This document shows, piece by piece, positions 3,301 through 57,190 of a DNA stretch of 64,000 nucleotides. Both the position numbers and the translations under genes were made by a program. The notes under the pieces were generated by a model. It ran no database searches. It was given only the letters and a program-made list of their open reading frames with translations, and had not been told where the DNA came from. The stretch is from Heterodontus francisci. Lineage: Eukaryota. Location: contig NW_027140807.1 in NCBI RefSeq assembly GCF_036365525.1, forward strand, positions 868,001 to 932,000, written 5' to 3'. Numbering within the stretch: position 1 is the stretch's first letter; each line of letters starts with the position of its first letter.

Positions 3301-3337
3301 TGCAGCGGATGAACGGGAGTTCAGTGCTCATCTTCAA

Positions 3338-3353
3338 CTGGCAGGGGGCAGCA
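3338..3353 (+). promoter_or_regulatory. Candidate CTCF site (single, CTGG variant)
   Basis: CTGGCAGGGGGCAGCA, 37 bp after the nonamer. Confidence 0.5.
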
Positions 3354-4676
3354 GTAGATTGAAGCTCATTGTTCAGATCTATCTGTCCACCTGATTGTTT
3401 ATCTCTCTGTCTCTCTATCTATCTATCACTTTACCTGGTTATCTATCTCTCTGCCTCTCTATCTATCTAACTCGATCTTTAGGTAATTACAGTTTGTGTG
3501 AACGAATTAAACATACTGCAGTAATGTAATGAATGACCATCTTTTCATAGATTTTCTATATATTGACCAGTAGATGATGTGGTTTGTCATCAATTATCTA
3601 TAAAAATCCTCTATGATCTTCAATATCTGTATCACATCTACTGTTAACCTTCTCTGCTCCAAGGAGCGAAACCCCCAGCTTCTCCATTCTCTCCACAGTA
3701 ACTGAAGTCCCTCATCCCTGGTACCAGTCTTGTTAATCTCCCTCTAACCTTCACTACACAGAGGTGAACAACTCCCCAATGCACAGAAACTATCTCAGCT
3801 CAGAACCCTGAACCATCTGAGCGCTGTTTCACACTGTTCAAAGGCGAAACCCCTCTCCAGATAACTTCATCTCTGGGACACTTGCCTCCTGACAGCGAGT
3901 TCAGAAGCTGCTGAAAACTCTTTACCCACTTTCACCTCAGACTCGAGTCACATTTAATCTGTTCTTCAAAGAAACCAGCAGTTCAGACCAGTGAACAATT
4001 TAACCATTTAACTCCCATTCACCACGGAGGTTCGGCAGCAGAGCAGTTATGTTACTGGGCTAGTAATCCAGAGGCCTGGACTAATGATCCCCAGACTTGA
4101 GTTCAATTCCCACCGGGGCAGAAATGCAATTTAAATTCAATTAATTAAATAAATAAAAATTTGTCATGGAAAGTATGAGTAATCCTGAACATGGAGTGTC
4201 TTAGAAACCCAACGTCTTCATTGATTACCTTCAGGGAAGGAAATCCGCCATTCCTACCAGGTCTGGCCTATATGTGACTGCAGACCCACAGCAATGTAGT
4301 TGACTGTTAACTGCCCTCTGATATGGCCTAGCAGGTATTCCCGAAGATGGTTCACCATCACCTTCTCAGGGGCAATAAGGGATGGGCACACTCTCTGGGT
4401 ATAGAGGGGTGTTTCCCTGAATTGTACTCTATCAATGCCCTTTCTGAAATGGGAACACCTCTATTCAATCTCCCCCTATCCTCCTGTGTTGTATCATTCT
4501 ACAACATTGCTATGCAAAGTAATGGGGTGGAGCAGAGTGTCGCAGTAAGTGACTGCCAATCACAATGACAACCGGATGCTGGGTATTTAATTGAACACAA
4601 TATAGAAACCGCCTGCAAGAGTGTTGTTGAAAACTCCACACGTTCACACATCGAGTTAGTATCGAATGAAGAAATC

Positions 4677-5483: not shown

Positions 5484-6808
5484 TGCAGCGGATGAACGGG
5501 AGTTCAGTGCTCATCTTCAACTGGCAGGGGGCAGCAGTAGATTGAAGCTTTCTGTTCATATCTATTTGTCCACCTGATTGTTTATCTCTCTGTCTCTCTA
5601 TCTATCTATCTCTCTACCTGGTTATCTATCTCTCTGTCTCTCTATCTATCTAACTCTATCTTTAGGTAATTACAGTTTGTATGAACTAATTAAACATACT
5701 GCAGTAATGTAATGAATGACCATCTTTTCATAGATTTTCTATATATTGACCAGTAGAAGATGTGGTTAGTCATCAATTATCTATCAAAATCCTCTATGAT
5801 CTTCAATATCTGTATCACATCTACCATTAACCTTCTCTGCTCTAAGGGCAGAAATCCCCAGCTTCTCCAGTCTCTCCACAGTAACTGAAGTCCCTCATCC
5901 CTGATACCAGTCTGGTTAATCTCCCTCTAAACTTCACTACACAGAGGCGAACAACCCCCTCATGCACAGGAACTAACTCAGCGCAGAACCATTAACCATC
6001 TGAGCGCTGTTTCACAGTGTTCAAAGTGAGACCCCTCTCCAGTTCAGAAGCTGCTGAAAACTCTTTACCCACTTTCATCTTCGACTCGAGTCACATTTGA
6101 TGTGTTCTTCAAAGAAACTCGCAGTTCAGACCAGTGAACAATTTAACCCTTTAACCGCCATTCAGCAAGGAGGTACGGTAGCAGAGCAGTTATGTTACTG
6201 GACTAGTAATCCAGAGGCCTGGACTAATGATCCCCAGACTTGAGTTCAATTCTCACCAGGGCAGAAATTGAATTTAAATTTAATTAAGTAAATAAATAAA
6301 ATCTGTAATGGAAAGTAAGAGCAATTCTGAACATGGAGTGTCGTAAAAACCCAACGTATTCATTGATGACCTTCAGGGAAGGAAATCTGCCATTCTTACC
6401 CGGTCTGGCCTATATGTGACTGCAGACCCACAGCAATGTGGTTGACTATTAACTGCCCTCTGATATGGCCCAGCAGGTAATTCCGAAGATGGTTCACCAC
6501 CACCTTCTCAGGGGCAATAAGGGATGGGCACACTCTCTGGGTATAGAGTGTTGCTTCCCTGGATTCTACTCCATCAAAGCCCTTTCTGAAATGTATTCAA
6601 TCTCCCCCTATCCTCCTAAGTTGTATCATTCTGCAACATTGCTATACAATGTAATGGGGTGGAGCAGAGTGTCGCAGTAAGTGACTGCCAATAACAATGA
6701 CAACCGGATGCTGGGTATTTAATTGGATACAATATAGAAACCGCCTGCAAGTGTGTTGTTGAAAACTCCACATGTTCACACATCGAGTTGGTATCGAATG
6801 AAGAAATC

Positions 6809-7568
6809 ATGTTGCATGAAGTTCTCTGTCTAACCTTGATGGCTGCATTCTTCCCACGTAAGTCAAAGTCAGAAACTGTGTCGAATAATGTACTGTAATG
6901 TTAGCGGTGATTCTGTCTGGAACACGCCTGTGTCAGAGTCTCACTCCAGAACACTTCAGCTCAAAATCAAGGCTGAACACCCCGGGTGTCATGACTGAGG
7001 GAATGTTGCACTGTCACAGAGGCAGTACTGAGGTAGTGCTGCACTGTCGCACAGGCAGTACTGAGGGAGTGCTGCACTGTCGCAGAGGCAGTACTGAGGG
7101 AGTGCTGCACTGTCGCAGAGGCAGTACTGATTGAGTAACTACATTGATTGCAAAGCCCTTTCTGAGGTCCTGAACGGCGCTATGTTAATGTAAGTCCTTT
7201 TTTCTTGCAATGCAGTCCCTCCTCTAATCCGCTATTGACTTAAATAATAATTTAATCGATGTTCCATTCCACAGGAATACTCGCCTCTTGTGTGGAACAG
7301 TCTCCCTCGATCCTATCGATTGCAGCAGGAGAGTCGACAACACTCAGATTCACGCTGACCAATACTGGCTGGACCTTAATGTACTGGTACAGTCAACAAC
7401 CAGACAGGGAACTGGAATCTCTGTTCTATTCTGCTACAGAAGTGACTGTTACCAATTACACGTCCGAGTCATTTATGGCAGTCAGATTCAGCGATACACT
7501 GTTTTCTTTGGCACTGAGAAACGCTGCTACATCTCACACCGCTGTCTATTTCTGCACTTGCAGTATCG
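6809..7568 (+). pseudogene. TRBV: TCR beta V family A #3, open frame but probably non-functional (leader 6809-6857, V exon 7275-7568)
   Basis: First canonical Cys replaced by Phe (TLRFTL), WYSQ; RSS degraded. Confidence 0.8.
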
Positions 7569-7607
7569 CACAGTATTTGAGAAAGCGGATCCGCAGCTGC
7601 ATCAACC
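7569..7607 (+). other. Degraded 23-RSS
   Basis: CACAGTA-23bp-GCATCAACC. Confidence 0.85.
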
Positions 7608-9064
7608 TGCAGCAGATGAACGGGATTTCAGTGCTCATCATCCACCGGCAGGTGGCATCAGTGGTTTGAGTCTCACTGCTCATTTTCCACCAGCAGGGGG
7701 CAGCAGTAGATTGAATGTCAGAGTTCATAACTGCCTGTCAACCTGCCTGTCTGTCTCTCTATCTATCTATCTCTCTACCTGGTTATCTATCTCTCTGTCT
7801 CTCTATCTATCTATCTCTCCACCTGGTTACCTATCTGTCTGTCTCTGTAACTATCTAACTATATCTTTAGGTGATTACAGTTTGTATGAACTAATTAAAC
7901 ATACTGCAGTGATGTGATGAATGACCATCTTTGCATAGATTTTCTATATATTGGCCAGTAGATGATGTGATGTGTTATCAATTATCTATCAAAATCCTCT
8001 ATGATCTTCAATATCTGTATCATATCTACCATTAACCTTCTCTGCTCCAAGGAGAGAAACCCCCAGCTTCTCCAGTCTCTCCACAGTAACTGAAGTCCCT
8101 CATCCCTGGTACCAGTCTTGTTAATCTCCCTCTAACCTTCACTACACAGAGGTGGACAACTCCCCAATGCACAGAAACTAACTCAGCTCAGAACCCTTAA
8201 CCATCTGAGTGCTGTTCCACACTGTTCAAAGGCGAAACCCCTCTGCAGATAACTTCATCTCTGGGACACCTGCCTCCTGACAGCGAGTTCAGAAGCTGCT
8301 GAAAACTCTTTACCCACTTTCACCTCAGACTCGAGTCACATTTAATGTGTTCTTCAAAGAAACTAGCAGTTCAGACCAGTGGACAATTTAACCATTTAAC
8401 TCCCATTCACCACGGAGGTTCGGCAGCAGGGCAGTTATGTTACTGGGCTAGTAATCCAGAGGCCTGGACTAATGATTCCCAGACTTGAGTTCAAATCCCA
8501 CCGGGGCAGAAATATAATTTAAATTCAATTAATTAAATAAATAAAAATCTGTCATGGAAAGTATGAGTAATCCTGAACATGGAGTGTCTTAAAAACCCAA
8601 CGTCTTCATTGATGACCTTCAGGGAAGGAAATCCGCCACTCCTACCCGGTCTGGCCTATATGTGACTGCAGACCCACAGCAATGAGGTTGACTGTTAACT
8701 GCCCTCTGATATGGCCCAGCAGGTATTTCCGAAGATGGTTCACCATCACCTTCTCAGGGGCAATAAGGGATGGGCACACTCTCTGGGTATAGAGGGTTGC
8801 TTCCCTGAATTCTACTCTATCAAATCCCTTTCTGAAATGAGAACACCTCTAATCAATCTCCCCCTATCCTCCTGTGTTGTATCATTCTACAACATTGCTA
8901 TACAATGTAATGCGGTGGAGCAGAGTGTCGCAGCAAGTGACTGCCAATCACAATGACAACCGGATGCTGGGTATTTAATTGGATACAATATAGAAACCGC
9001 CTGCAAGTGTGTTGTTGAAAACTCCACACGTTCACACATCGAGTTAGTATCGAATGAAGAAATC

Positions 9065-9931
9065 ATGTTGCACGAAGTTCTCTGTCTGATCTTGATGCCT
9101 GCCCTGTTCCCACGTAAGTCAAAGTCAGAAACAGAGTCGAATAATGTATTGTAATGTTAGGGGTGATTCTGTCCGGAACACTCCTGTGTCTGAGTCTCAC
9201 TCCAGAACACTTGAGCTCAAAGTCAAGGCTGACAAACCACGTGTCAGGACTGAGGGAGTGCTGCACTGTCGCAGAGGCAGTACTGAGGGAGTGCTGCACT
9301 TTCACAGAAGCAGTACTGAGGGAGTGCTGCACTGTCACAGAGGCAGTACTGAGGGAGTGCTGCACTGTCGCAGAGGCAGTACAGAGTGAGTTCTGCACTG
9401 TCGCAGAGGCAGTACTGAGGGACTGCTGCACTGTCGCAGAGGCAGTACTGAGGGAGTGCTGCACTGTCGAATAGGCAGTACTGACGGAGTAACTGCATTT
9501 GTTGCAAAGCACTTTCTGATGTCCGGAGGTCCTGAACGGCGCTATATTAATGTAAGCCCTTTCTTTCTTGCAATGCAGCTCCTGCTCCAATCCATTATTG
9601 ACTGAAATAATAATCTAATCGATGTTCCATTCCACAGGAATACTCTCCTCCTATGTGGAACAGTCACCCTCTATCCTATCGATTGCAGCAGGAGAGTCGA
9701 CAACACTCAGATGCACGCTGACCAATACTGACTATTCCTATATGTACTGGTACAGACAACAACCAGACAGGGCACTGGAAGCTCTGTTCTATTCTGCTGG
9801 AACAGGGTCTGTTACCAATTACACGTCCGAGTCATTTAAGGCAGTCAGAGCCAGCAATACACTGTTTACTTTTGCACTGAGAGACGCCGCTCCATCTCAC
9901 ACCGCTGTCTATTTCTGCGCTTGTAGTGTCG
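9065..9931 (+). CDS. TRBV: TCR beta V segment, family A #4 (leader 9065-9113, V exon 9638-9931)
   Basis: Open frame, canonical residues, YFCACS. Confidence 0.92.
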
Positions 9932-9970
9932 CACAGTGTTTGAGAAAGCGGATCAGCAGCTGCAAAAACC
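9932..9970 (+). other. 23-RSS
   Basis: CACAGTG-23bp-GCAAAAACC. Confidence 0.95.
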
Positions 9971-9989
9971 TGTCGTGGATGAACGGGAG

Positions 9990-10343
9990 TTCAGTGCTCA
10001 CCTTCCACTGGCAGGGGGCAGCAGTGGATTGAATCTCAGTGCTCATCTTCCACCGGCAGGGGGCAGCAGTAGATTGAATTCAGCGCTCACCATCCACCGG
10101 CAGGGGGCAGCAGTGGATTGAATCTCGGTGCTCATCTTCCACCGGCAGGGGGCAGCAGTAGATTGAATCTCAGTGCTCATCTTCCACCAGCAGGGGGCAG
10201 CAGTGGATTGAATCTCTGTGCTCATCTTCCACCGACAGGGGGCGGCAGTACATTGAATCTCAGTGCTCATCTTCCACCGACAGGGGGCGGCAGTACATTG
10301 AATCTCAGTGCTTATCTTCGACCGGCAGGGGGCAGCAGTAGAC
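9990..10343 (+). repeat. 45-bp minisatellite, 8 units, each containing a CTCF-type core
   Basis: Unit ttgaatctcagtgctcatcttccaCCGGCAGGGGGCAGCAgtaga; cores at 10008, 10053, 10097, 10142, 10187, 10232, 10277, 10322. Confidence 0.92.
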
Positions 10344-10739
10344 TGACTGCTCAATTTCTGCAACCAGGTCATGGAATCATCTTGGTTAACAGCAGAGAAG
10401 GAGACCATTCGGCCCATCTTCCCCGTACTGGCTTATTTGAAAGAACTGTCCAGTTATTGCTCTTCCCCCCACCCCCCCCCGCTACTTCCCCATAGCCCTG
10501 CACATTGTTTCCATTCACGTGTACAATCCATTGCCTTTTGAACGTTCTTGTTCAAACTGCTTCCAACACCCTTTCAGACAGTGCTCGCCACATCATAACA
10601 ACTCGCTGCTTAAATAAATCATCACTTCTCCCCCCCTCTCCCCATTAATTCATCTGCCAGTTATATTTAATCAATGTCTCTGGGTTGCCTTCTGCCTATA
10701 GAAACAGTTTCTGTCATTTACATATTTTAAAAAATTCTT

Positions 10740-12785: not shown

Positions 12786-13307
12786 ATGGCTGTGTCTCAG
12801 CTCTGGGTTGTGTTGTTGGTGTTAACGGGTAAGGAGGTGTCTGAACTGTGAGGTTACAATGATGTAGATGTGTCTCTGCTTCTCAGTCTCTGTCTGTCTT
12901 TGTCTCTCTCCTTCTCCCTCTGTATTTCTTTCTCTGTAGATAACGATATAGACATTGCCCCTGGGTTAATCTCTCTCTTTCTCTCTCTCTCTCCCTCTCT
13001 GTTTTACAGATGTGGGGGCCGTGTTGATCCAACAGACTCCCGCTTCCATATCCCATTCCCCAGGCTCTCCAGTCAGGTTCGAGTGTATTTACACTGAAGC
13101 AACAGCTAGCTCTGTTTTCAACTGGTACCGATGGCATCTGGACCGTGAGCCCGAGAACCTTTTCTATTCCTACCCCGCCAGAACGGTCACCCCCTGCGGA
13201 GAGGTGGACGGTTTCACCGCCAGGAGACCCAACAACACCCATTTTTACCTTGAGTCTCCAGCCTGTGGGTGAATCAATCAGCCGTGTATTACTGTGCCTG
13301 GAGACTG
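12786..13307 (+). pseudogene. TRBV: TCR beta V family B #1, frameshifted (leader 12786-12828, V exon 13010-13307)
   Basis: 1-nt deletion near 13256 (gagtctccagc vs gagtcctccagc in paralogs) puts YYCAW out of frame; stop at 13270-13272. Confidence 0.88.
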
Positions 13308-13346
13308 CACAGTGACTCAGAAAGGCGCCGGAGTTCAGCAAAAACT
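13308..13346 (+). other. 23-RSS (intact)
   Basis: CACAGTG-23bp-GCAAAAACT. Confidence 0.95.
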
Positions 13347-14711: not shown

Positions 14712-14744
14712 TGCAGTTACACCTGGAGCCACTAGGTGCCAGTG
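14712..14744 (+). promoter_or_regulatory. Candidate CTCF site with upstream TGCAGT module (copies ~48305-48337, ~52880-52912)
   Basis: TGCAGT-11bp-CCACTAGGTGCCAGTG. Confidence 0.6.
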
Positions 14745-19522: not shown

Positions 19523-19800
19523 ATGTTGTTAAATTTGTTGGTGTTTTTCTCCTGTTGCGGTTGTTCTTGAATTTGTTGGTGGCTTTCTCCTGTTGACGTT
19601 GTTGTTGAATTTGTTGGTGTTTCTCTCTTGTTGAGGTTGTTGCTGAATTTGTTGGTGTTTCTCTCCTGTTGAGGTTGTTGTCGAATTTGTTGGTGATTTT
19701 CTCCTGTTGAGGTTGTTGTCGATCTGTTGGTGTTTCACTCCTGTTGAGGTTGTTGCTGAATTTGTTGGTGATTTTATCCTACTGAAGTTGATGTTAAATT
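19523..19800. repeat. GTT-rich degenerate minisatellite, left part (continues 23421-23742; related tract 56513-57190)
   Basis: Unit ~ctgttgaggttgttgttgaatttgttggtgtttttctc, split by the CR1 insertion. Confidence 0.85.
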
Positions 19801-19901
19801 TAACATAGAACATAGAACATACAGCACAGAACAGGCCCTTCGGCCCACAATGTTGTGCCGATCCTTTGTCCTCTGTCAAGGACAATTTAATCTATACCCC
19901 A

Positions 19902-22792: not shown

Positions 22793-23420
22793 CTAGTTTA
22801 AACCCTCCCGAACAGTACTAGCAAACCTCCCTCCCAGGATATTGGTGCCCCTCTGGTTCAGATGCAGCCCGTCCTGTTTGAACAGGTCCCATCTTCCCCA
22901 GAATGCAGTCCAATTATCCAAGAACTGGAAGCCCTCCCTCCTACACCATTCCTGCAGCCACGTGTTCAGCTGTGCTCTCTCCCTATTCCTAGCCTCACTA
23001 TCACGTGGCGCCGGCAACAAACCAGAGATAACAACTCTGTCCGTCCGAGCTTTCAGCTTCCAGCCTAACTCCCTAAACTCACTTCTAACATCTGTGCCAC
23101 CCTTCCTTCCTACGTCGTTGGTGCCAATGTGCACCACGACCTCTGGCTGCTCCCCCTCCCCTTTAAGGATCCTGAAGACGCGATCACAAACATCACGGAC
23201 CCTGGCACCAGGGAGGCAACAAACCATCCGTGCGTCTCGCCTGCGCCCACAGAACCGCCTGTCCGTACTCCTCACCATCGAGTCCCCGATGACTAGTGCT
23301 CTCCCATTCTCCCTCCTTCCCTTCTGAGCCACAGTGCAGGACCCCGTGCCAGAGGCCCGGTCACTGCAGCCTGCCCCCGATAGGCCGTCCCCCCCAACAG
23401 TATCTAAAACTGTATACTTT
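22793..23420 (-). CDS. LINE ORF1 C-terminal part, SGNH/GDSL esterase domain (5' truncated)
   Basis: VIGDS, HIGTND, DGLHL motifs. Confidence 0.88.
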
Positions 23421-23744
23421 GTTGTTGCTTCTCTCCTGTTGAGGTTGTTGTTGAAATTGTTGGTGTTTCACTCCTGTCGAGGTTGTTGTTGAATTTTTTG
23501 GAGCTTTTATCCTGTTGAGGTTGTTGTTGAATTTGTTGGTGATTTTCCACTGTTGAGGTTGTTGTTGAATTTGTTGGTGATTTTATCCTATAGAAGTTGC
23601 AGCATTTGTTGGTGTATCTCTTCTGTCGAGGTTGTTGTTGAACAAGTTGGTGTTTTACTGCTGTTGAGGTTGTTGGTGTTTTCATTCTGCTGACGTTGTT
23701 GTTGAATTGGTTGGTGATTTTTTCCTGTTGAGGTTGTTGTTGAG

Positions 23745-32200: not shown

Positions 32201-32840
32201 CTGGAATGGTTCCAGGGATGAGAGATTTTAGCTACATGGTTAGTTTGGTGAAGCTGGGGTTGTTCTCCTTGGAGCAAAGGAAATTGAGGGGAGATTTGAC
32301 AGAAGTGCGCAAAATGAAGAGAGGTTTAGATAAAGTAGACAAAGAAAAACTGTTCCCATTAGCTGATTGTACAAAGACTAGGGGACGAAGAGGATAGGAA
32401 TAAAACAGAGAATAAAAGCTGAGAAAAACTGAAATCCGATAGGGAGTTGAGGTGAATTCTTTACCCAAAATACAGAATTCAATGCCAGCAAAACTGCTAA
32501 GACAAAGGCAGGAACAGGAAGGGGCCATTTAGGCCCGCAATTCTGTACCACCATTCAATGAGATCATGGCTGATCAGTGATCTAACTCCATATTCCCGCC
32601 TTTGTCCCATATCCCTTAATATATTTTGGATCACAAAAACCTATCCATCTCCGATTTCAAATTAACAATTGATTCAGCATCAATTTCCGTTAGCAGAAGA
32701 GAGTTCAAACCTCTCCACCCATTGTGTGTAAAAGTGTCTCCTAATTTCACTCCTGAAAGGTCTGGCTCTAAATTTTAGTCTTTGCCTCTTAGTCCTAGAT
32801 TCCCAAACCAGCGGTAATAGTTTCTCTCTATCTACTCCCA

Positions 32841-32964
32841 AAGACTAAATAAATACGACTTCAAACTGGAGACCTCCAGCCTGCGGGAGAATCACTCGGC
32901 CGTGTATTTCTGTGCCTGGAGAGATCACAGTGACTCAGAGAGATGGAGCAGTTCAACAAAAACA
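32841..32964 (+). pseudogene. TRBV: 3' relic of a family-E V segment with intact 23-RSS (32926-32964)
   Basis: FKLETSSLRENHSAVYFCAWRD then CACAGTG-23bp-ACAAAAACA; 5' part replaced by repeat DNA. Confidence 0.88.
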
Positions 32965-35611: not shown

Positions 35612-35704
35612 AGGTAGATCGATCGGAAGAGAGATAGATAGGTAAATAGATATACAGACACTGTTGTGGTTTATTCACTGACAGTGTTGTCTTTCTCCAA
35701 AGGG

Positions 35705-35720
35705 ACAGCAGAGGGCGGTG
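35705..35720 (+). promoter_or_regulatory. Candidate CTCF site 3' of family-E V (variants at 376-391, 33227-33242, 38534-38549)
   Basis: ACAGCAGAGGGCGGTG. Confidence 0.5.
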
Positions 35721-41459: not shown

Positions 41460-42793
41460 TGCAGCGGATGAACGGGAGTTCAGTGCTCATCTTCAACTGG
41501 CAGGGGTCAGCAGTAGATTGAAGCTTATTGTTCATATCTATCTGTCCACCTGATTGTTTATCTCTCTGTCTCTCTATCTATCTATCTCTTTACCTGGTTA
41601 TCTATCTCTCTGTCTCTCTATCTATTTAACTCTATCTTTAGGTAATTACAGTTTGTATGAACTAATTAAACATACTGCAGGAATGTAATGAATGACCATC
41701 TTTTCATAGATTTTCTATATATTGACCAGTAGAAGATGTGATTTGTCATCAATTATCTATCAAAATCCTCTATGATCTTCAATATCTGTATCACATCTAC
41801 CATTAACCTTCTCTGCTCTAAGGGCAGAAACCCCCAGCTTCTCCAGTCTCTCCACAGTAACTGAAGTCCCTCATCCCTGATACCAGTCTGGTTAATCTCC
41901 CTCTAACCTTCACTACACAGAGGCGAACAACCCCCTCATGCACAGGAACTAACTCAGCGCAGAACCATTAACCATCTGAGCGCTGTTTCACAGTGTTCAA
42001 AGTGAGACCCCTCTCCAGTTCAGAAGCTGCTGAAAACTCTTTACCCACTTTCATCTTAGACTCGAGTCACATTTGATGTGTTCTTCAAAGAAACTCGCAG
42101 TTCAGACCAGTGAACAATTTAACCCTTTAACCGCCATTCAGCAAGGAGGTACGGGAGCAGAGCAGTTATGTTACTGGACTAGTAATCCAGAGGCCTGGAC
42201 TAATGATCCCCAGACATGAGTTCAATTCTCACCAGGGCAGAAATTGAATTTAAATTTAATTAAGCAAATAAATAAAATCTGTAATGGAAAGTAAGAGCAA
42301 TTCTGAACATGGAGTATCGTAAAAACCTAACGTATTCATTGATGACCTTCAGGGAAGGAAATCTGCCATTCTTACCCGGTCTGGCCTATATGTGACTGCA
42401 GACCCACTGCAATGTGGTTGACTATTAACTGCCCTCTGATATGGCCCAGCAGGTAATTCCGAAGATGGTTCACCACCACCTTCTCGGGGCAATAAGGGAT
42501 GGGCACACTCTCTGGGTATAGAGGGTTGTTTCCCTGAATTCTAATCTATCAAATCCCTTTCTGAAATGTGAACACCTCTATTCAATCTCCCCCTATCCTC
42601 CTGTGTTGCATCATTCTACAACATTGCTATACAATGTAATGGGGTGGAGCAGAGTGTCGCAGTAAGTGACTGCCAATCACAATGACAACCGGATGCTGGG
42701 TATTTAATTGGATACAATATAGAAACCGCCTGCAAGTGTGTTGTTGAAAACTCCACACGTTCACACATCGAGTTAGTATCGAATGAAGAAATC

Positions 42794-43628: not shown

Positions 43629-43667
43629 CACAGTGTTTGAGAAAGCGGATACTCAGCTGCAAAAACC
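43629..43667 (+). other. 23-RSS
   Basis: CACAGTG-23bp-GCAAAAACC. Confidence 0.95.
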
Positions 43668-43686: not shown

Positions 43687-44290
43687 TTCAGTGCTCATCT
43701 TCCACCGGCAGGGGGCAGCAGCAGATTGTATATCAATGCTCATTTTCCACCAGCAGGGGGCAGCAGTAGATTGAATCTCAGTGCTCATCCTCCACCGGCA
43801 GGGGGCAGCAGTGGATTGAATCTCAGTGCTCATCCTCCACCGGCAGGGGGCAGCAGTGGATTGAATCTCAGTGCTCATCTTCCACCGGCAGGGGTCAGCA
43901 GTAGATTGAATCTCAGTGCTCATCTTCCACCGGCAGGGGGCAGCAGTAGATTGAATCTCAGTGCTCATCTTCCACCGGGAGGGGGCAGCAGTAGATTGAA
44001 TCTCAGTGCTCATCTTCCACCGGCAGGGGGCAGCAGTAGATTGAATCTCAGTGCTCATCTTCCACCGGCAGGGGGCAGCAGTGGATTGAATCTCAGTGCT
44101 CATCCTCCACCGGCAGGGGGCAGCAGTGGATTGAATCTCAGTGCTCATCTTCCACCGGCAGGGGGCAGCAGTAGATTGAATCTCAGTGCTCATCCTCCAC
44201 CGGCAGGGGGCAGCAGTGGATTGAATCTCAGTGCTCATCCTCCACCGGCAGGGGGCAGCAGTAGATTGAATCTCAGTGCTCATCCTCCAC
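43687..44290 (+). repeat. 45-bp minisatellite, 13 units plus a partial, each with a CTCF-type core
   Basis: Cores every 45 bp from 43705 to 44245. Confidence 0.95.
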
Positions 44291-46913: not shown

Positions 46914-49900
46914 CTAGACATTGTCAGAGCTCACTTGTGGGAGATAGACCTGTCCATCTGGGGTGTCATTCTAACACTCTGACGATCTGTCAGTTTCTAT
47001 GTCTACTGTTGAATGAACTGGCTCTTTGACAGAGTTGTCTGACCAGTTCCCATTCACTGACCAGTTCTCCATTACATTAAGAAATCTCCCCTTCATCTAC
47101 TTCTCCAATTGACATCTGGAAGTTACGATTGGATGGTCTTCCACCGCCCTTTCAGTCAGTGTCCTCCACATGATAACAATTCACTGAGGAGAAAGATTCC
47201 ACTCATCTCCCACTCTGGTTCCTTTCCCAATTACCTTCAATTCTTGGTCCCTGGTTTATCGACCCTCCTGACAGTAGATACGACCCTCTGGATACAGTTT
47301 CTCTATCAAGACACTTCTGACAACATCTTTAAAATCTCCCCTTACCCTCATTACTCTAATGGACACAAGTCTATACAAATAGGAAATGGTTGATCTTGGA
47401 ACCTTTAATCATGTCCCTGATGATTCATACAGTGCAAAGGCGAGAAACCTCTCCAGATCCGTCTCTGACTGGAACACCTGCCTCCAGACGGCGGCTTCAG
47501 CATCTGTTCAAAACTGTTAACCCACTTGTCTCTCAGTCTCTCGGTGCCTTTTGAAGAATTTTCACAATGACTGGAGTTCAGTGCGGTGAAGAACTTAACC
47601 CTTTAGCTCCCGTTTAGTACAAGTGGGGGAAGGGGGTGGGGGAGGTGTGGGTGGGGAATGAAACTGTCTTGGCCCTGAAACAAGGCAGCAGGTTGATGGG
47701 TCTTATTGGATCATAGAATAATGCAGGACAAATCCAGGCCATTCAGCCCATCGATCCTGGCCTGGCTGTTCGAAAGAGCGACCTCCTCCCATCTCTCTTC
47801 ATCCTACCCTATCAACAGATTCTCCTATTCCTTTCTCACTCATGTATTTATTGAGCTCCCCCCTTAACAGTATTGTCTCTATTCGACCTCAACCCATTCC
47901 AGTTGGTCGCGAATTCCACATTCTGACCGCTCCCTGGGTTAAAGAACCTCCTTCTGAATTCCCAATTGGATTTATTAAGGACAACCTTACATTTATGATC
48001 CCTCGTTTTCATCTTCCCTGTCCAATTGCTCCCACTCCCTGTTCTTTCTGAATATCCCTGCACTTGATCTTGCAGCTTGTCTGCCTCCTTCCCGACATTA
48101 CAACAGTGACTGCACTTCAAAATGTATTTGACTGGTTGCGGCTTGAGTGAAGCAGAGAGCTGTCTGGCCGAATGGCGCGGAAGAGTGCATAAACTTCCAT
48201 CTGGTTCTATGCCACAAGCGCAAACGGGAGTCGAGTAGGATAACAAAGCCAATGACTGATACAATTTTAGAGTCTGAGACTGAAACGCCTGCAGAATCGG
48301 TGCTTGCAGTTGCACGTGAAGCCACTAGGTGCCAGTGTTACTCTAGTGTCGCCGCTGCCCAGAACATGCTCAGACAGAGTGAGCTTTACCCACAGCAGCT
48401 CTGCAGGTCAACTTGGCTGCTTCTGAAATGTTTCACTTCTCAACTATTTCACACAAAATATTCTGGCAATGTCAAACAAATCAATGATTTGATATCAGGT
48501 AGATGATCTTTAAATCTGATCCTTTTGGGGTCATTAAGTGACATTAATATCAGTCCAACCTTGAAATAGTTGCACCCAGATGCCAGTTTGTAGATTTCCA
48601 GTTTCTATTTTACAATTACATAGTCCCAGGTGTTTGTAGGAAACTAGGAGAGAGCCTGAATGTCCATCCTGACTTTAGCACAACTCCCACATGTATCGTG
48701 CCAAGTGTAAAGTAACATTTGCCCCCCATGTTCCCTGTTTCCTGGTGGAAAACGGGAGATCTGGTGCTCACTTCATGTGATCAAGTGAGGGACAGTTTTC
48801 AGAACAGAAGGCTTCACAATGACATGTTGTGATATCCTCACACCGCTGGTGGAGGTGCTGTATTAATCAGGTCTGTTCTTTGAGGAGGTGAAACTCAGTA
48901 TGTTGAGGTTTTAACAGCGGGTTTGCTTTTGCAGAATGGTGCAAAATAATAAATTAACACGGAAGCTGGAGAGAGTTCACCTTCTTAGGCAGTTCCCCCT
49001 GGATTGAGGATGACTTGCTTCCACTCCGGTTCAATGGGTTCTGAGATGGCTGATGAGTCCAGTGTATGATCTGCAGACTCTGTCACATGATGGGCAGGTG
49101 GTGCTTTGAGGATCAGGCAGGTGAGTAGTTTGCAGGTTTGTGCGCTCCCTCCGATGCCTCGGCCTTGCCTCTGCATGTTCCTTAAGTTCCTCGAGGTGTC
49201 CAATGCCTTCCCGTATGTCCTTTCTCCAACTGGGATGTTCAGGAGCCATGTTCTCCCAGGAGTCAATGCGGATGTTTCGTCTCTCCAGGGATGCTGTGAG
49301 GACATCTCTAAAACGTTTCCGCTGTCCTCCTGGGAGTCTCCTGACACGGCTAAGTTCTGAGTAGAACTGCTTCTTTGGGGAGTCTGGTGGCAGGAATGTG
49401 AATGACATGTCCCAGCCAGTGGAGCTGGTTTTGGGTGACTCGAACCCTGACACTAGACAGATTGGTTTGGGAGAGGACGATGCTGTTGGACTACCTGTTT
49501 TGCCACTGGATTTGGAGGTTAATGCGGAGGCACCTCTGGTGTTACTTCTCTTGTGCTTTGAGGTGTCGACTGTAGGTTCTCCAAGGTAAGGTAAATGTGG
49601 AGGTGCATTTATTTACAGTGACTGACAGGACAAAGCAGTTCAGAGTTATCCACTGTCTAGACAAAGAACCACATACAGACTGACCTCAAACTCACGTAAT
49701 TTTTCCACGAACTCAAAGAGCAGGGCCTGATCCACAGTTTTATCATCATGTACCTGGGTTCCAAAATTGGAATTTGCACATGTTTGGCCTCCAACCTCCT
49801 TGGTTAAAACACACTGGGTGCACTGTGAACATTTCAGGACTCCTCATTCCTTGGTTAGACTTCATTTGGAGAACTGTGCACTGTTCCATTCTCATTATAC

Positions 49901-56512: not shown

Positions 56513-57190
56513 TGTTGAGGGTTTTCTCCTGCTGAGGTTGTTGTAGAATTTTTTGGTGTTTTTCTCAGACTGAAATTGTTGTTTTATTTGTTGGTGCCTT
56601 CTTCTGATTGAAGTTGTTGTTGAAATTGTTGCTGTTTTTCACCTGTTGAGGTTGTTGTTGAATTTGTTGGTGTTTATCTCCTGCTGAAGTTGTTGTTCAA
56701 TTTGTTGCTGTTTTTCACCTGCTGAAGTTGTTGCTGCATTTGATGGTGTTTTTCACCTGTTGAGGTTGTTGTTGAATTTTGTGGTGACTTTTCCTGCTGA
56801 AGTTGTTGCTGCGTTTGTTGGTGTTTTTCATCTGTTGAGGTTGTTGTTGAATTTGTTGGTGTTTTTCTCCTGCTGAAATTGTTGATTTTGTTTCCTGCTA
56901 ATGTCGTTGAATTTATTGGTGTTTTTCACCTGCTGAGGTTTCTGTTGAATTAGTTGGTGTTTATCACCTGTTGAAGTTGTTGTTGAATGTTCTGGTGCTT
57001 TTTCCTGCTGAGGTTGTTGTTGAGTTTGTTGGTGTTTTTCACCTGGTGAGGTTGTTGTTGAGTTTGTTGGTGTTTTTCTCCTGTTGAAATTGTTGTTGAA
57101 ATTGTTGATTTATTTTCCTGCTAATGTTGTTGAATTTATTGGTGTTTTTCACCTGCTGAGGCTTTTGTTGATTTTTTTGGTGTTTTTCTC
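56513..57190. repeat. GTT-rich degenerate minisatellite
   Basis: Same unit family as 19523-19800. Confidence 0.88.

What the first reader, a model, noticed from the sequence alone, without database searches (positions are those of the whole stretch)
9990..10343. Second CTCF-motif array (8 units) after V A#4, at the equivalent position in the duplicated block
Seen: 8 units with their own variants (CTGG, CCGG, CCAG, CCGAC..GGCGGCA). In both duplicated blocks the array follows the last family-A gene, and unit number and variants differ (8 vs 13). The second copy also lacks ~250 bp of 3' flank (10343-10590), joined at a cagtgctc..ccac microhomology. Inference: the array predates the duplication and is still turning over, possibly acting as a sub-domain boundary at the end of each family-A cluster.
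Basis: partly seen in the sequence, partly recalled or inferred. Interest (0 to 1): 0.72.

Follow-up and report, generated by a model that had tools for sequence, protein, structure and literature searches.

The report
CTCF-site minisatellite behind shark TCR genes
Right behind the cutting signal of a shark T-cell-receptor beta gene segment lie eight head-to-tail copies of a likely binding site for the genome-folding protein CTCF; the whole gene family carries 1 to 42 copies that nearly always face the nearest joining region, so they likely help loop these segments to their partners, though binding is untested.

Summary
Observation confirmed: eight 45-bp units (9991-10340) begin 20 bp after the 23-RSS of an intact shark TRBV gene; seven fit the CTCF motif strongly. 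It is not a two-copy feature. All 149 family-A V genes recovered carry the unit at a fixed place (834 units, 1-42 per gene), and all 129 exact genome-wide matches lie beside these genes. Arrays sit at run ends because the 2.2-kb cassette duplication broke inside unit 2, so inner genes hold one unit, damaged in 59 of 60. Copy number changes faster than the flanks. 63 of 65 runs face the nearest of 21 TRBC copies, and opposite-facing motifs flank D-J-C, as in mouse Tcrb. Best reading (0.5): a V-side loop anchor amplified as a minisatellite, not a boundary. Neutral drift of copy number remains a strong rival (0.3): spacing differs from mammals, selection signal is weak, genes without a strong site stay intact. 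A second species' contigs hold the tandem unit too. New variant of known RSS-associated CTCF sites; this scan noted a similar eight-copy array before on other DNA of this genome. Binding and effect on V usage are unshown.

The parts
9065..9113 (+). Leader exon of family-A TRBV gene #4 (ATG to GT donor), in frame with the V exon
   Evidence: sequence; contigs of runs X5 and X6 carry leader-type letters joined at 9638
9245..9490 (+). 33-bp intron minisatellite without CTCF motif; 0-13 copies across family-A genes (control VNTR)
9638..9931 (+). TRBV exon, open, both Cys and Trp present; mosaic: inner-type alleles around CDR2 in a run-end chassis
   Evidence: (best hits shark TCR beta chains, 64-76%)
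9932..9970 (+). 23-RSS: heptamer 9932-9938, 23-bp spacer, nonamer 9962-9970 (one mismatch)
9971..9990 (+). 20-bp linker of fixed length between nonamer and unit 1 (141 of 149 genes at the same offset)
9991..10340 (+). The array: 8 x 45-bp units, CTCF-like 19-mers starting at 10005 (weak, C-to-T at motif position 5), 10050, 10094, 10139, 10184, 10229, 10274, 10319
10341..10591 (+). Type-1 3' flank; missing only in the block-2 copy; ends in the shared CCAC
3321..3375 (+). Single damaged unit plus a stub of unit 2 behind V A#1, joined to the TCTA-rich start of the next cassette
5504..5558 (+). Single damaged unit plus stub behind V A#2
7628..7714 (+). Two strong units behind the divergent V A#3, whose RSS is degraded
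41480..41534 (+). Single damaged unit behind the inner family-A gene of block 2
43688..44290 (+). 13-unit array plus partial 14th unit behind the last family-A gene of block 2 (RSS 43629-43667)
14726..14744 (+). Single co-directional CTCF-like motif about 1.4 kb behind a family-B V (like copies at 48319, 52894); score 13.8-13.9
35702..35720 (+). Single co-directional CTCF-like motif among family-B2 V genes; score 18.4

Best explanation
The array is a 45-bp minisatellite whose units are predicted CTCF sites, fixed 20 bp behind the recombination signal of family-A shark TRBV genes, and it likely works as a V-side cohesin loop anchor that pairs with opposite-facing sites at D-J-C and so brings the V run near the recombination centre. 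Shown: position, motif fit, orientation, family-wide distribution, copy-number turnover. Steps: (1, inferred from sequence) an ancestral family-A gene had at least two units; (2, shown by the junction) the 2.2-kb cassette duplications that built the runs broke inside unit 2, leaving inner genes one unit, which carries a C-to-T change at a near-invariant motif position; (3, shown) only genes that kept two or more units went on to expand and contract; (4, inferred from mouse Tcrb and Igh) CTCF bound to the array stalls cohesin next to the RSS, giving one strong anchor per run that also serves the inner genes 2-13 kb upstream; (5, inferred) because 40 of 63 runs lie beyond C in inverted orientation, final synapsis would be by short-range diffusion as in mouse Tcrb, not by one-way RAG scanning alone; (6, untested) unit number would tune anchor strength and V usage.
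For: Unit at a fixed offset behind 149 of 149 family-A genes examined (141 at exactly the same offset). 75 of 77 run-end genes have at least one strong unit; 57 of 77 by the stricter published core. All 129 exact genome-wide matches of a 34-letter unit pattern lie in the fetched TRB stretches: not a dispersed satellite. In 153 kb of + strand V region 56 motif hits of 7 types are co-directional with the V genes and none opposite; in 47 kb of - strand V region 12 hits of 4 types, none opposite; the D-J-C region has 1 forward and 3 reverse; 30 column-permuted matrices gave 0-6 hits per strand against 42. 63 of 65 runs face the nearest TRBC exon. The D-J-C-side motifs recur in 22, 16 and 18 exact copies. 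This matches mouse Tcrb: V CBEs convergent with CBEs flanking DJ (10.1101/2024.10.13.618029, passages), and loss of the Trbv1 CBE cuts contacts and recombination (PMC10772921, passages). High-information motif columns change less than other columns among 182 distinct units (3.5 vs 6.6 parsimony changes, one-sided p=0.03, CpG columns left out), and the motif-improving CpA variant is in 53 of 61 distinct arrays against 18 for the motif-breaking TpG. A second organism's contigs keep V-RSS-unit and head-to-tail joints, with C at motif position 5 in all 16 and 21 contigs.
Against: No binding, methylation, Hi-C or repertoire data. Co-direction of motif and V gene is partly trivial, since they duplicate together, and the types counted are few. 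Spacing to the first core is 35 bp (80 bp to the first strong core in this array), not the 17-19 bp of mouse or 19/48 bp of human (PMC6746451). First units are not more conserved than the linker (0.056 vs 0.044), unlike mouse. Genes without a strong site are not decaying: 53 of 60 have an intact V and 57 of 60 the usual RSS, while 13 of 77 array-bearing genes are broken and keep 3-19 units. On the unit tree CpA and TpG arose about equally often (4 vs 5), and alleles seen are not significantly milder than alleles unseen (p=0.19). Array length does not track distance to C (rho -0.20, p=0.10, n=67). A motif-free 33-bp repeat in the same genes varies too (0-13 copies). The scoring matrix was recalled, not fetched.
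Confidence: 0.5

Rival explanations
1. One ancestral RSS-side CTCF site (working or vestigial) fell into an ordinary minisatellite; copy number drifts by slippage and unequal exchange and has no effect on folding or V usage.
For: Copy number jumps from 1 to 42 among genes with near-identical flanks. Inner genes with a damaged site stay intact, broken genes keep long arrays. Variants are largely CpG decay products, with equal numbers of origins for helpful and harmful changes. Motif-free 33-bp and 38-bp repeats in the same locus also vary. End-of-run position is explained by the duplication junction.
Against: Mild excess conservation of high-information columns and wider spread of the motif-improving variant; 75 of 77 run ends keep a strong unit; unit kept intact in a second organism; locus-wide convergent layout with D-J-C-side motifs.
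Confidence: 0.3
2. One reading: each array is an insulator that closes a sub-domain at the end of a family-A run and shields it from the next V family.
For: Strong units are concentrated at run ends (75 of 77 vs 13 of 72 inner genes). Tandem CTCF sites insulate in either orientation (PMC7087399, passages), and predicted insulation grows with site number (PMC11828424, passages; modelled at 180-bp spacing, not 45).
Against: All units face one way, towards D-J-C, with no divergent partner; boundaries are described as divergent pairs (PMC7087399). The position follows from the cassette junction. Many arrays follow single genes, not runs, and 5 run ends have one unit. Runs are 2-15 kb, short for a folding domain (own knowledge).
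Confidence: 0.12
3. The unit is not a CTCF site in vivo (for example kept methylated at its CpG) and acts, if at all, as a G-rich exchange hotspot that drives duplication, deletion and conversion in the V family.
For: Two independent rearrangement junctions fall inside a unit: the cassette duplication and the block-2 deletion. Most units hold a CpG in the core (494 of 667 non-first 35-letter units) and its decay products imply germline methylation. V A#4 is a mosaic.
Against: Motif fit by two independent yardsticks; a second, unlinked 45-bp repeat family and single motifs show the same polarity. Breakpoints in repeats are expected under any reading.
Confidence: 0.08

Closest known systems
RSS-associated CTCF sites of mouse and human IgH VH genes (Ciccone 2019, PMC6746451: abstract, section 5, passages; VH81X CBE via review PMC7930373, passages)
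   Same: Family-specific site at a fixed distance 3' of a 23-RSS, same core (5 of 8 units within 2 mismatches of mVH-CTCF), same orientation as V transcription.
   Different: TRB not IgH; 35 bp not 17-19/48 bp; tandem 1-42 copies not one; not lost from pseudogenes and damaged in most intact inner genes; binding untested.
Mouse Tcrb V-side CBEs convergent with 5'PC/CBE1/CBE3 (10.1101/2024.10.13.618029 and PMC10772921, passages)
   Same: Same locus type; V-side motifs face D-J-C; reverse motifs before D and after C, one forward motif before D; inverted V genes beyond C.
   Different: Mouse has 18 single V CBEs and one inverted V; here hundreds of units in arrays, about 21 D-J-C copies and whole inverted V arrays.
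CTCF 'hot spots' of human IGHV (3 sites in 100 bp to 50 sites in 2.1 kb; PMC6746451, passage)
   Same: Dense co-directional CTCF clusters in a V region at a similar spacing (about 42 bp vs 45 bp).
   Different: The human clusters are not RSS-associated; here the cluster starts 20 bp behind the RSS.
CTCF-bearing tandem repeats such as DXZ4, ICCE and the 1q23.3 tRNA VNTR (search listing only); Igh 3'CBE cluster of 10 sites (PMC7930373, passage)
   Same: Tandem or clustered CTCF sites, some with variable copy number.
   Different: Kilobase units or unrelated single sites, not tied to an RSS.

Membership tests
RSS-associated CTCF site (VH type) | Core within 2 mismatches of mVH-CTCF | tested here: met
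   5 of 8 units here; 57 of 77 run-end genes have one; 1 of 60 single-unit inner genes
RSS-associated CTCF site (VH type) | Fixed distance from the nonamer within a V family | tested here: met
   141 of 149 genes at one offset, the rest within -3 to +15
RSS-associated CTCF site (VH type) | Spacer of 17-19 bp (mouse) or 19/48 bp (human) | tested here: not met
   35 bp to the first core; 80 bp to the first strong core in this array
RSS-associated CTCF site (VH type) | Same orientation as V transcription | tested here: met
RSS-associated CTCF site (VH type) | Site more conserved than the RSS-site linker | tested here: not met
   first units of 41 distinct run-end sequences: motif 0.056, linker 0.044; weak signal only across all units
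RSS-associated CTCF site (VH type) | Present at functional genes, lost at pseudogenes | tested here: not met
   53 of 60 weak-site genes intact; 13 of 77 array genes broken
RSS-associated CTCF site (VH type) | CTCF binding and effect on V usage | not testable with these tools
   no ChIP, EMSA or raw-read repertoire data
Tcrb-type convergent V / DJ CBE layout | V-side motifs face reverse motifs flanking D-J-C | tested here: met
   (motif level only)
Tcrb-type convergent V / DJ CBE layout | Loops between these sites in thymocytes | not testable with these tools
   no contact data
Domain boundary (insulator) | Divergent site pair at the border | tested here: not met
   no opposite-strand hit in 153 kb of V region
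Domain boundary (insulator) | Insulation in Hi-C | not testable with these tools
   no contact data
Minisatellite / VNTR | Head-to-tail 10-60 bp units with variable number among copies | tested here: met
   616 of 685 periods are 45 bp; 1-42 units
Minisatellite / VNTR | Length alleles among individuals | not tested
   runs held are short contigs or reduced-representation libraries

The most novel reading that the evidence does not exclude
This shark's TRB is a field of about 21 self-contained units, each a D-J-C with V arrays facing it from both sides, and it sets V usage with a heritable dial: an RSS-linked CTCF minisatellite whose 1-42 copies give each V run its loop-anchor strength. CTCF-guided V(D)J assembly would then date to the jawed-vertebrate ancestor and be tunable by repeat-length mutation.
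Probability: 0.2. Interest if true: 0.82.

Novelty: new variant of a known kind. Interest (0 to 1): 0.52.

Why it matters
CTCF control of V(D)J recombination has been tested in mice; three searches of the held library that paired CTCF or TRB organisation with sharks listed no paper on it, though subscription papers and supplements were not searched. The locus offers a natural dose series: near-identical V genes with 1 to 42 sites, and inner genes with a broken site, in deletional and inversional positions. Long-read repertoire plus CTCF profiling in one animal would test directly whether site number, distance or orientation sets V usage, and whether loop anchoring is ancestral in jawed vertebrates. 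If copy number is neutral, it is a clear case of a regulatory motif caught in a minisatellite.

Tried and rejected
Dispersed satellite or transposon piece: rejected, 129 of 129 exact matches lie in TRB stretches. Assembly artefact: unlikely, head-to-tail joints appear in contigs of runs from both organisms, though run X1 may be the source sample. Coding repeat: it lies 3' of the RSS and is removed or inverted on joining; not pursued. The two window arrays as sisters: rejected. C2233 as a plain haplotype copy of C761: not colinear, 94-99% identical, D-J-C inverted relative to the V run, so redundancy could not be settled; 61 of 77 run-end arrays are distinct. Length vs distance to C and vs deletional/inversional position: no significant link (p=0.10, p=0.08). 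Allele-level selection tests: not significant (p=0.19, p=0.09). No RNA holder is on record for the stretch; contig depth was not used to rank V genes. Inner-cassette junction had no cover in organism B's contigs: no evidence of absence. Jain 2018 (PMC6026039) is not held and is cited only through reviews; PMC6039039 was a wrong id. No other shark genome could be searched. Look-ups of earlier findings near the place and by sequence were empty. No supplements were read; Tables S1-S3 of PMC6746451 may bear on CTCF sites at mammalian TRB.

Full report
What is there. The window is C761:868001-932000 of a 6.0-Gb genome. It holds V genes with 23-RSS on the + strand; the family-A protein's four relatives among longer proteins are shark sequences, three named T-cell receptor beta chain, 64-76% identical. 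A D-D-J-C unit follows at C761:940-966 kb. The array spans 9991-10340, eight 45-bp units starting 20 bp after the nonamer of the intact V A#4. Seven units score 16.8-22.6 bits with a CTCF matrix that I recalled from memory (15.1 bits is p=2e-6 in random sequence); unit 1 scores 10.9 because of a C-to-T change at a near-invariant position. An independent yardstick from print, the mVH-CTCF core of PMC6746451 (section 5 read), gives 5 of 8 units within two mismatches and 17 hits in the window, all on the + strand.

A family-wide element. A protein search gave 149 family-A matches on seven contigs, a lower bound. I fetched all of them and found 152 pieces; three 5' halves of split genes were dropped, leaving 149 genes. 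Every one carries the unit, 141 at the same offset; 834 units in all. Of 72 genes followed by another family-A gene, 60 have one unit, 11 have two or three, one has six. Of 77 run-end or single genes, 71 have three or more, median 8, maximum 42. A 34-letter unit pattern has 129 exact matches in the whole genome and 129 in the fetched stretches, so the element is confined to these genes.

Why arrays sit at run ends. In inner genes the last full unit is followed by a stub of the next unit and then by the TCTA-rich sequence that also lies upstream of the first cassette. The 2.2-kb cassette duplication therefore broke inside the array, and inner genes inherited one unit, which cannot easily re-expand (inference). 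In 59 of 60 of these single units motif position 5 is T; only 1 of 60 passes the published core. Inner and run-end genes are largely separate lineages on the V tree (7 state changes against 33 or more in 500 shuffles, 123 distinct exons). V A#4 is an exception: its V exon groups with inner genes while its linker and array are run-end type, a likely conversion tract.

History and turnover. Arrays lie in front of two unrelated flank types. The two window arrays belong to different subclades: flanks 87% identical, no exact unit shared. The closest relatives of this array have 8, 12, 25, 8, 19 and 19 units at 97-99.9% flank identity; 49 of 61 type-1 pairs at 99-100% identity differ in number (pairs not independent). 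The 250-bp deletion is private to the block-2 copy and fuses a partial 14th unit to the flank at CCAC. Contigs of a second organism (two runs, one sample) bridge V exon, RSS and unit 1 at about 90% identity and show 45-bp head-to-tail joints; all their contigs keep C at motif position 5. Leader-type letters joined at 9638 in runs X5 and X6 point to spliced family-A transcripts in both organisms (the runs are RNA by guess only).

Locus layout. There are 21 TRBC exons, 98-100% identical in protein, on six contigs and both strands; how many are redundant haplotype copies is open. 63 of 65 runs face their nearest TRBC; 10 were set aside because a contig end was nearer and 2 lie on a contig without C. 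40 of the 63 lie beyond C in inverted orientation. In the fully read 264 kb, all V-region motif hits are co-directional with the V genes (56 hits of 7 types and 12 of 4 types, none opposite), while the D-J-C region has one forward and three reverse motifs, three of which recur in 22, 16 and 18 exact copies. This resembles mouse Tcrb, where 18 V CBEs converge on CBEs flanking DJ (10.1101/2024.10.13.618029, passages) and where the Trbv1 CBE is needed for contacts and recombination that can proceed by inversion (PMC10772921, passages).

Selection. The signal is weak. Among 182 distinct 45-mers, high-information columns show 3.5 parsimony changes against 6.6 elsewhere (p=0.03, one-sided), and the motif-improving CpA variant occurs in 53 of 61 distinct arrays against 18 for motif-breaking TpG; but the two arose 4 and 5 times on the unit tree and allele-level tests are not significant. 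First units are no more conserved than the linker. Genes with a damaged site remain intact (53 of 60), 13 of 77 array genes are broken, length does not track distance to C, and a motif-free intron repeat in the same genes also varies.

Mechanism and rivals. Most likely (0.5) the array is a V-side loop anchor, one per run, bringing the RSSs near D-J-C for diffusion-based joining; binding, looping and any dose effect are inferred from mouse. Neutral copy-number drift around an old site (0.3), a sub-domain boundary (0.12) and a non-CTCF exchange hotspot (0.08) are the rivals.

Relation to known systems. It works like the RSS-associated VH sites of PMC6746451 (abstract, section 5, passages) and the VH81X CBE (review PMC7930373 and preprint 10.1101/2020.01.01.891473, passages; the primary paper was not held), but fails three of their features (spacing, conservation over linker, loss in pseudogenes), so I do not file it as a member. 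Dense clusters of up to 50 sites in 2.1 kb are known in human IGHV but are not RSS-linked. The combination, RSS-linked and tandem, in a TRB locus, did not appear in the listings. A review states that cartilaginous fish TCR genes are in translocon form (PMC6795676, passage); salmonids have up to four TRB loci in inverted pairs (PMC10464911, passages). Earlier notes of this scan describe a like eight-copy array and RSS-side sites on other DNA of this genome; they led me to PMC6746451 and are not counted as evidence. Verdict: real, new variant of a known kind, interest 0.52.

Noticed in passing
G000 contigs C407, C761, C779, C1317, C1675, C2233: 21 near-identical TRBC exons on both strands, most with V arrays facing them from both sides: a many-unit TRB locus of several megabases, against the single translocon described for cartilaginous fish in PMC6795676. 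Haplotype redundancy not settled. Possibly of more interest than the array itself.
   Followed up: partly
G000:C761:998500-998700 (-), C2233:395160-395510 and 433330-433500 (+); L141-L146: A second 45-bp CTCF-like tandem repeat, related in its 3' half to the family-A unit but not next to any RSS; 24 exact matches, all on TRB contigs, co-directional with nearby V genes where checked.
   Followed up: partly
G000:C761:935121 (+), 935232 (-), 936527 (-), 971602 (-): Single strong CTCF-like motifs before D1 and 5 kb after the last C exon found, a layout like mouse CBE1/CBE2/CBE3; three recur in 16-22 copies.
   Followed up: partly
window 7278-7720 (V A#3) and 11 similar inner genes: A divergent inner subtype keeps 2-6 strong units but has a degraded RSS in all 12 cases: strong site with poor signal, the reverse of the other inner genes.
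   Followed up: partly
window 9640-9930: V A#4 carries inner-type alleles at V positions 119-213 in a run-end chassis, a likely gene-conversion tract over CDR2.
   Followed up: yes
window 13021-13308, 32836-32926: Family-B and B2 V genes with frameshift or 5' loss but good RSS.
   Followed up: no
window 19524-19801, 23418-23744, 56522-57188: 38-bp T/G-rich tandem repeats between V genes; one lies, inverted, just before the second CTCF-like repeat family.
   Followed up: no
G000:C761:612579-609140 and C2233:702278-705906: A family-A V exon split by a 3.4-kb insertion, present in two copies.
   Followed up: no
P0002: A database protein annotated as aldehyde dehydrogenase ends in a family-A-like germline V with read-through into its RSS, likely a mis-joined gene model.
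   Followed up: no
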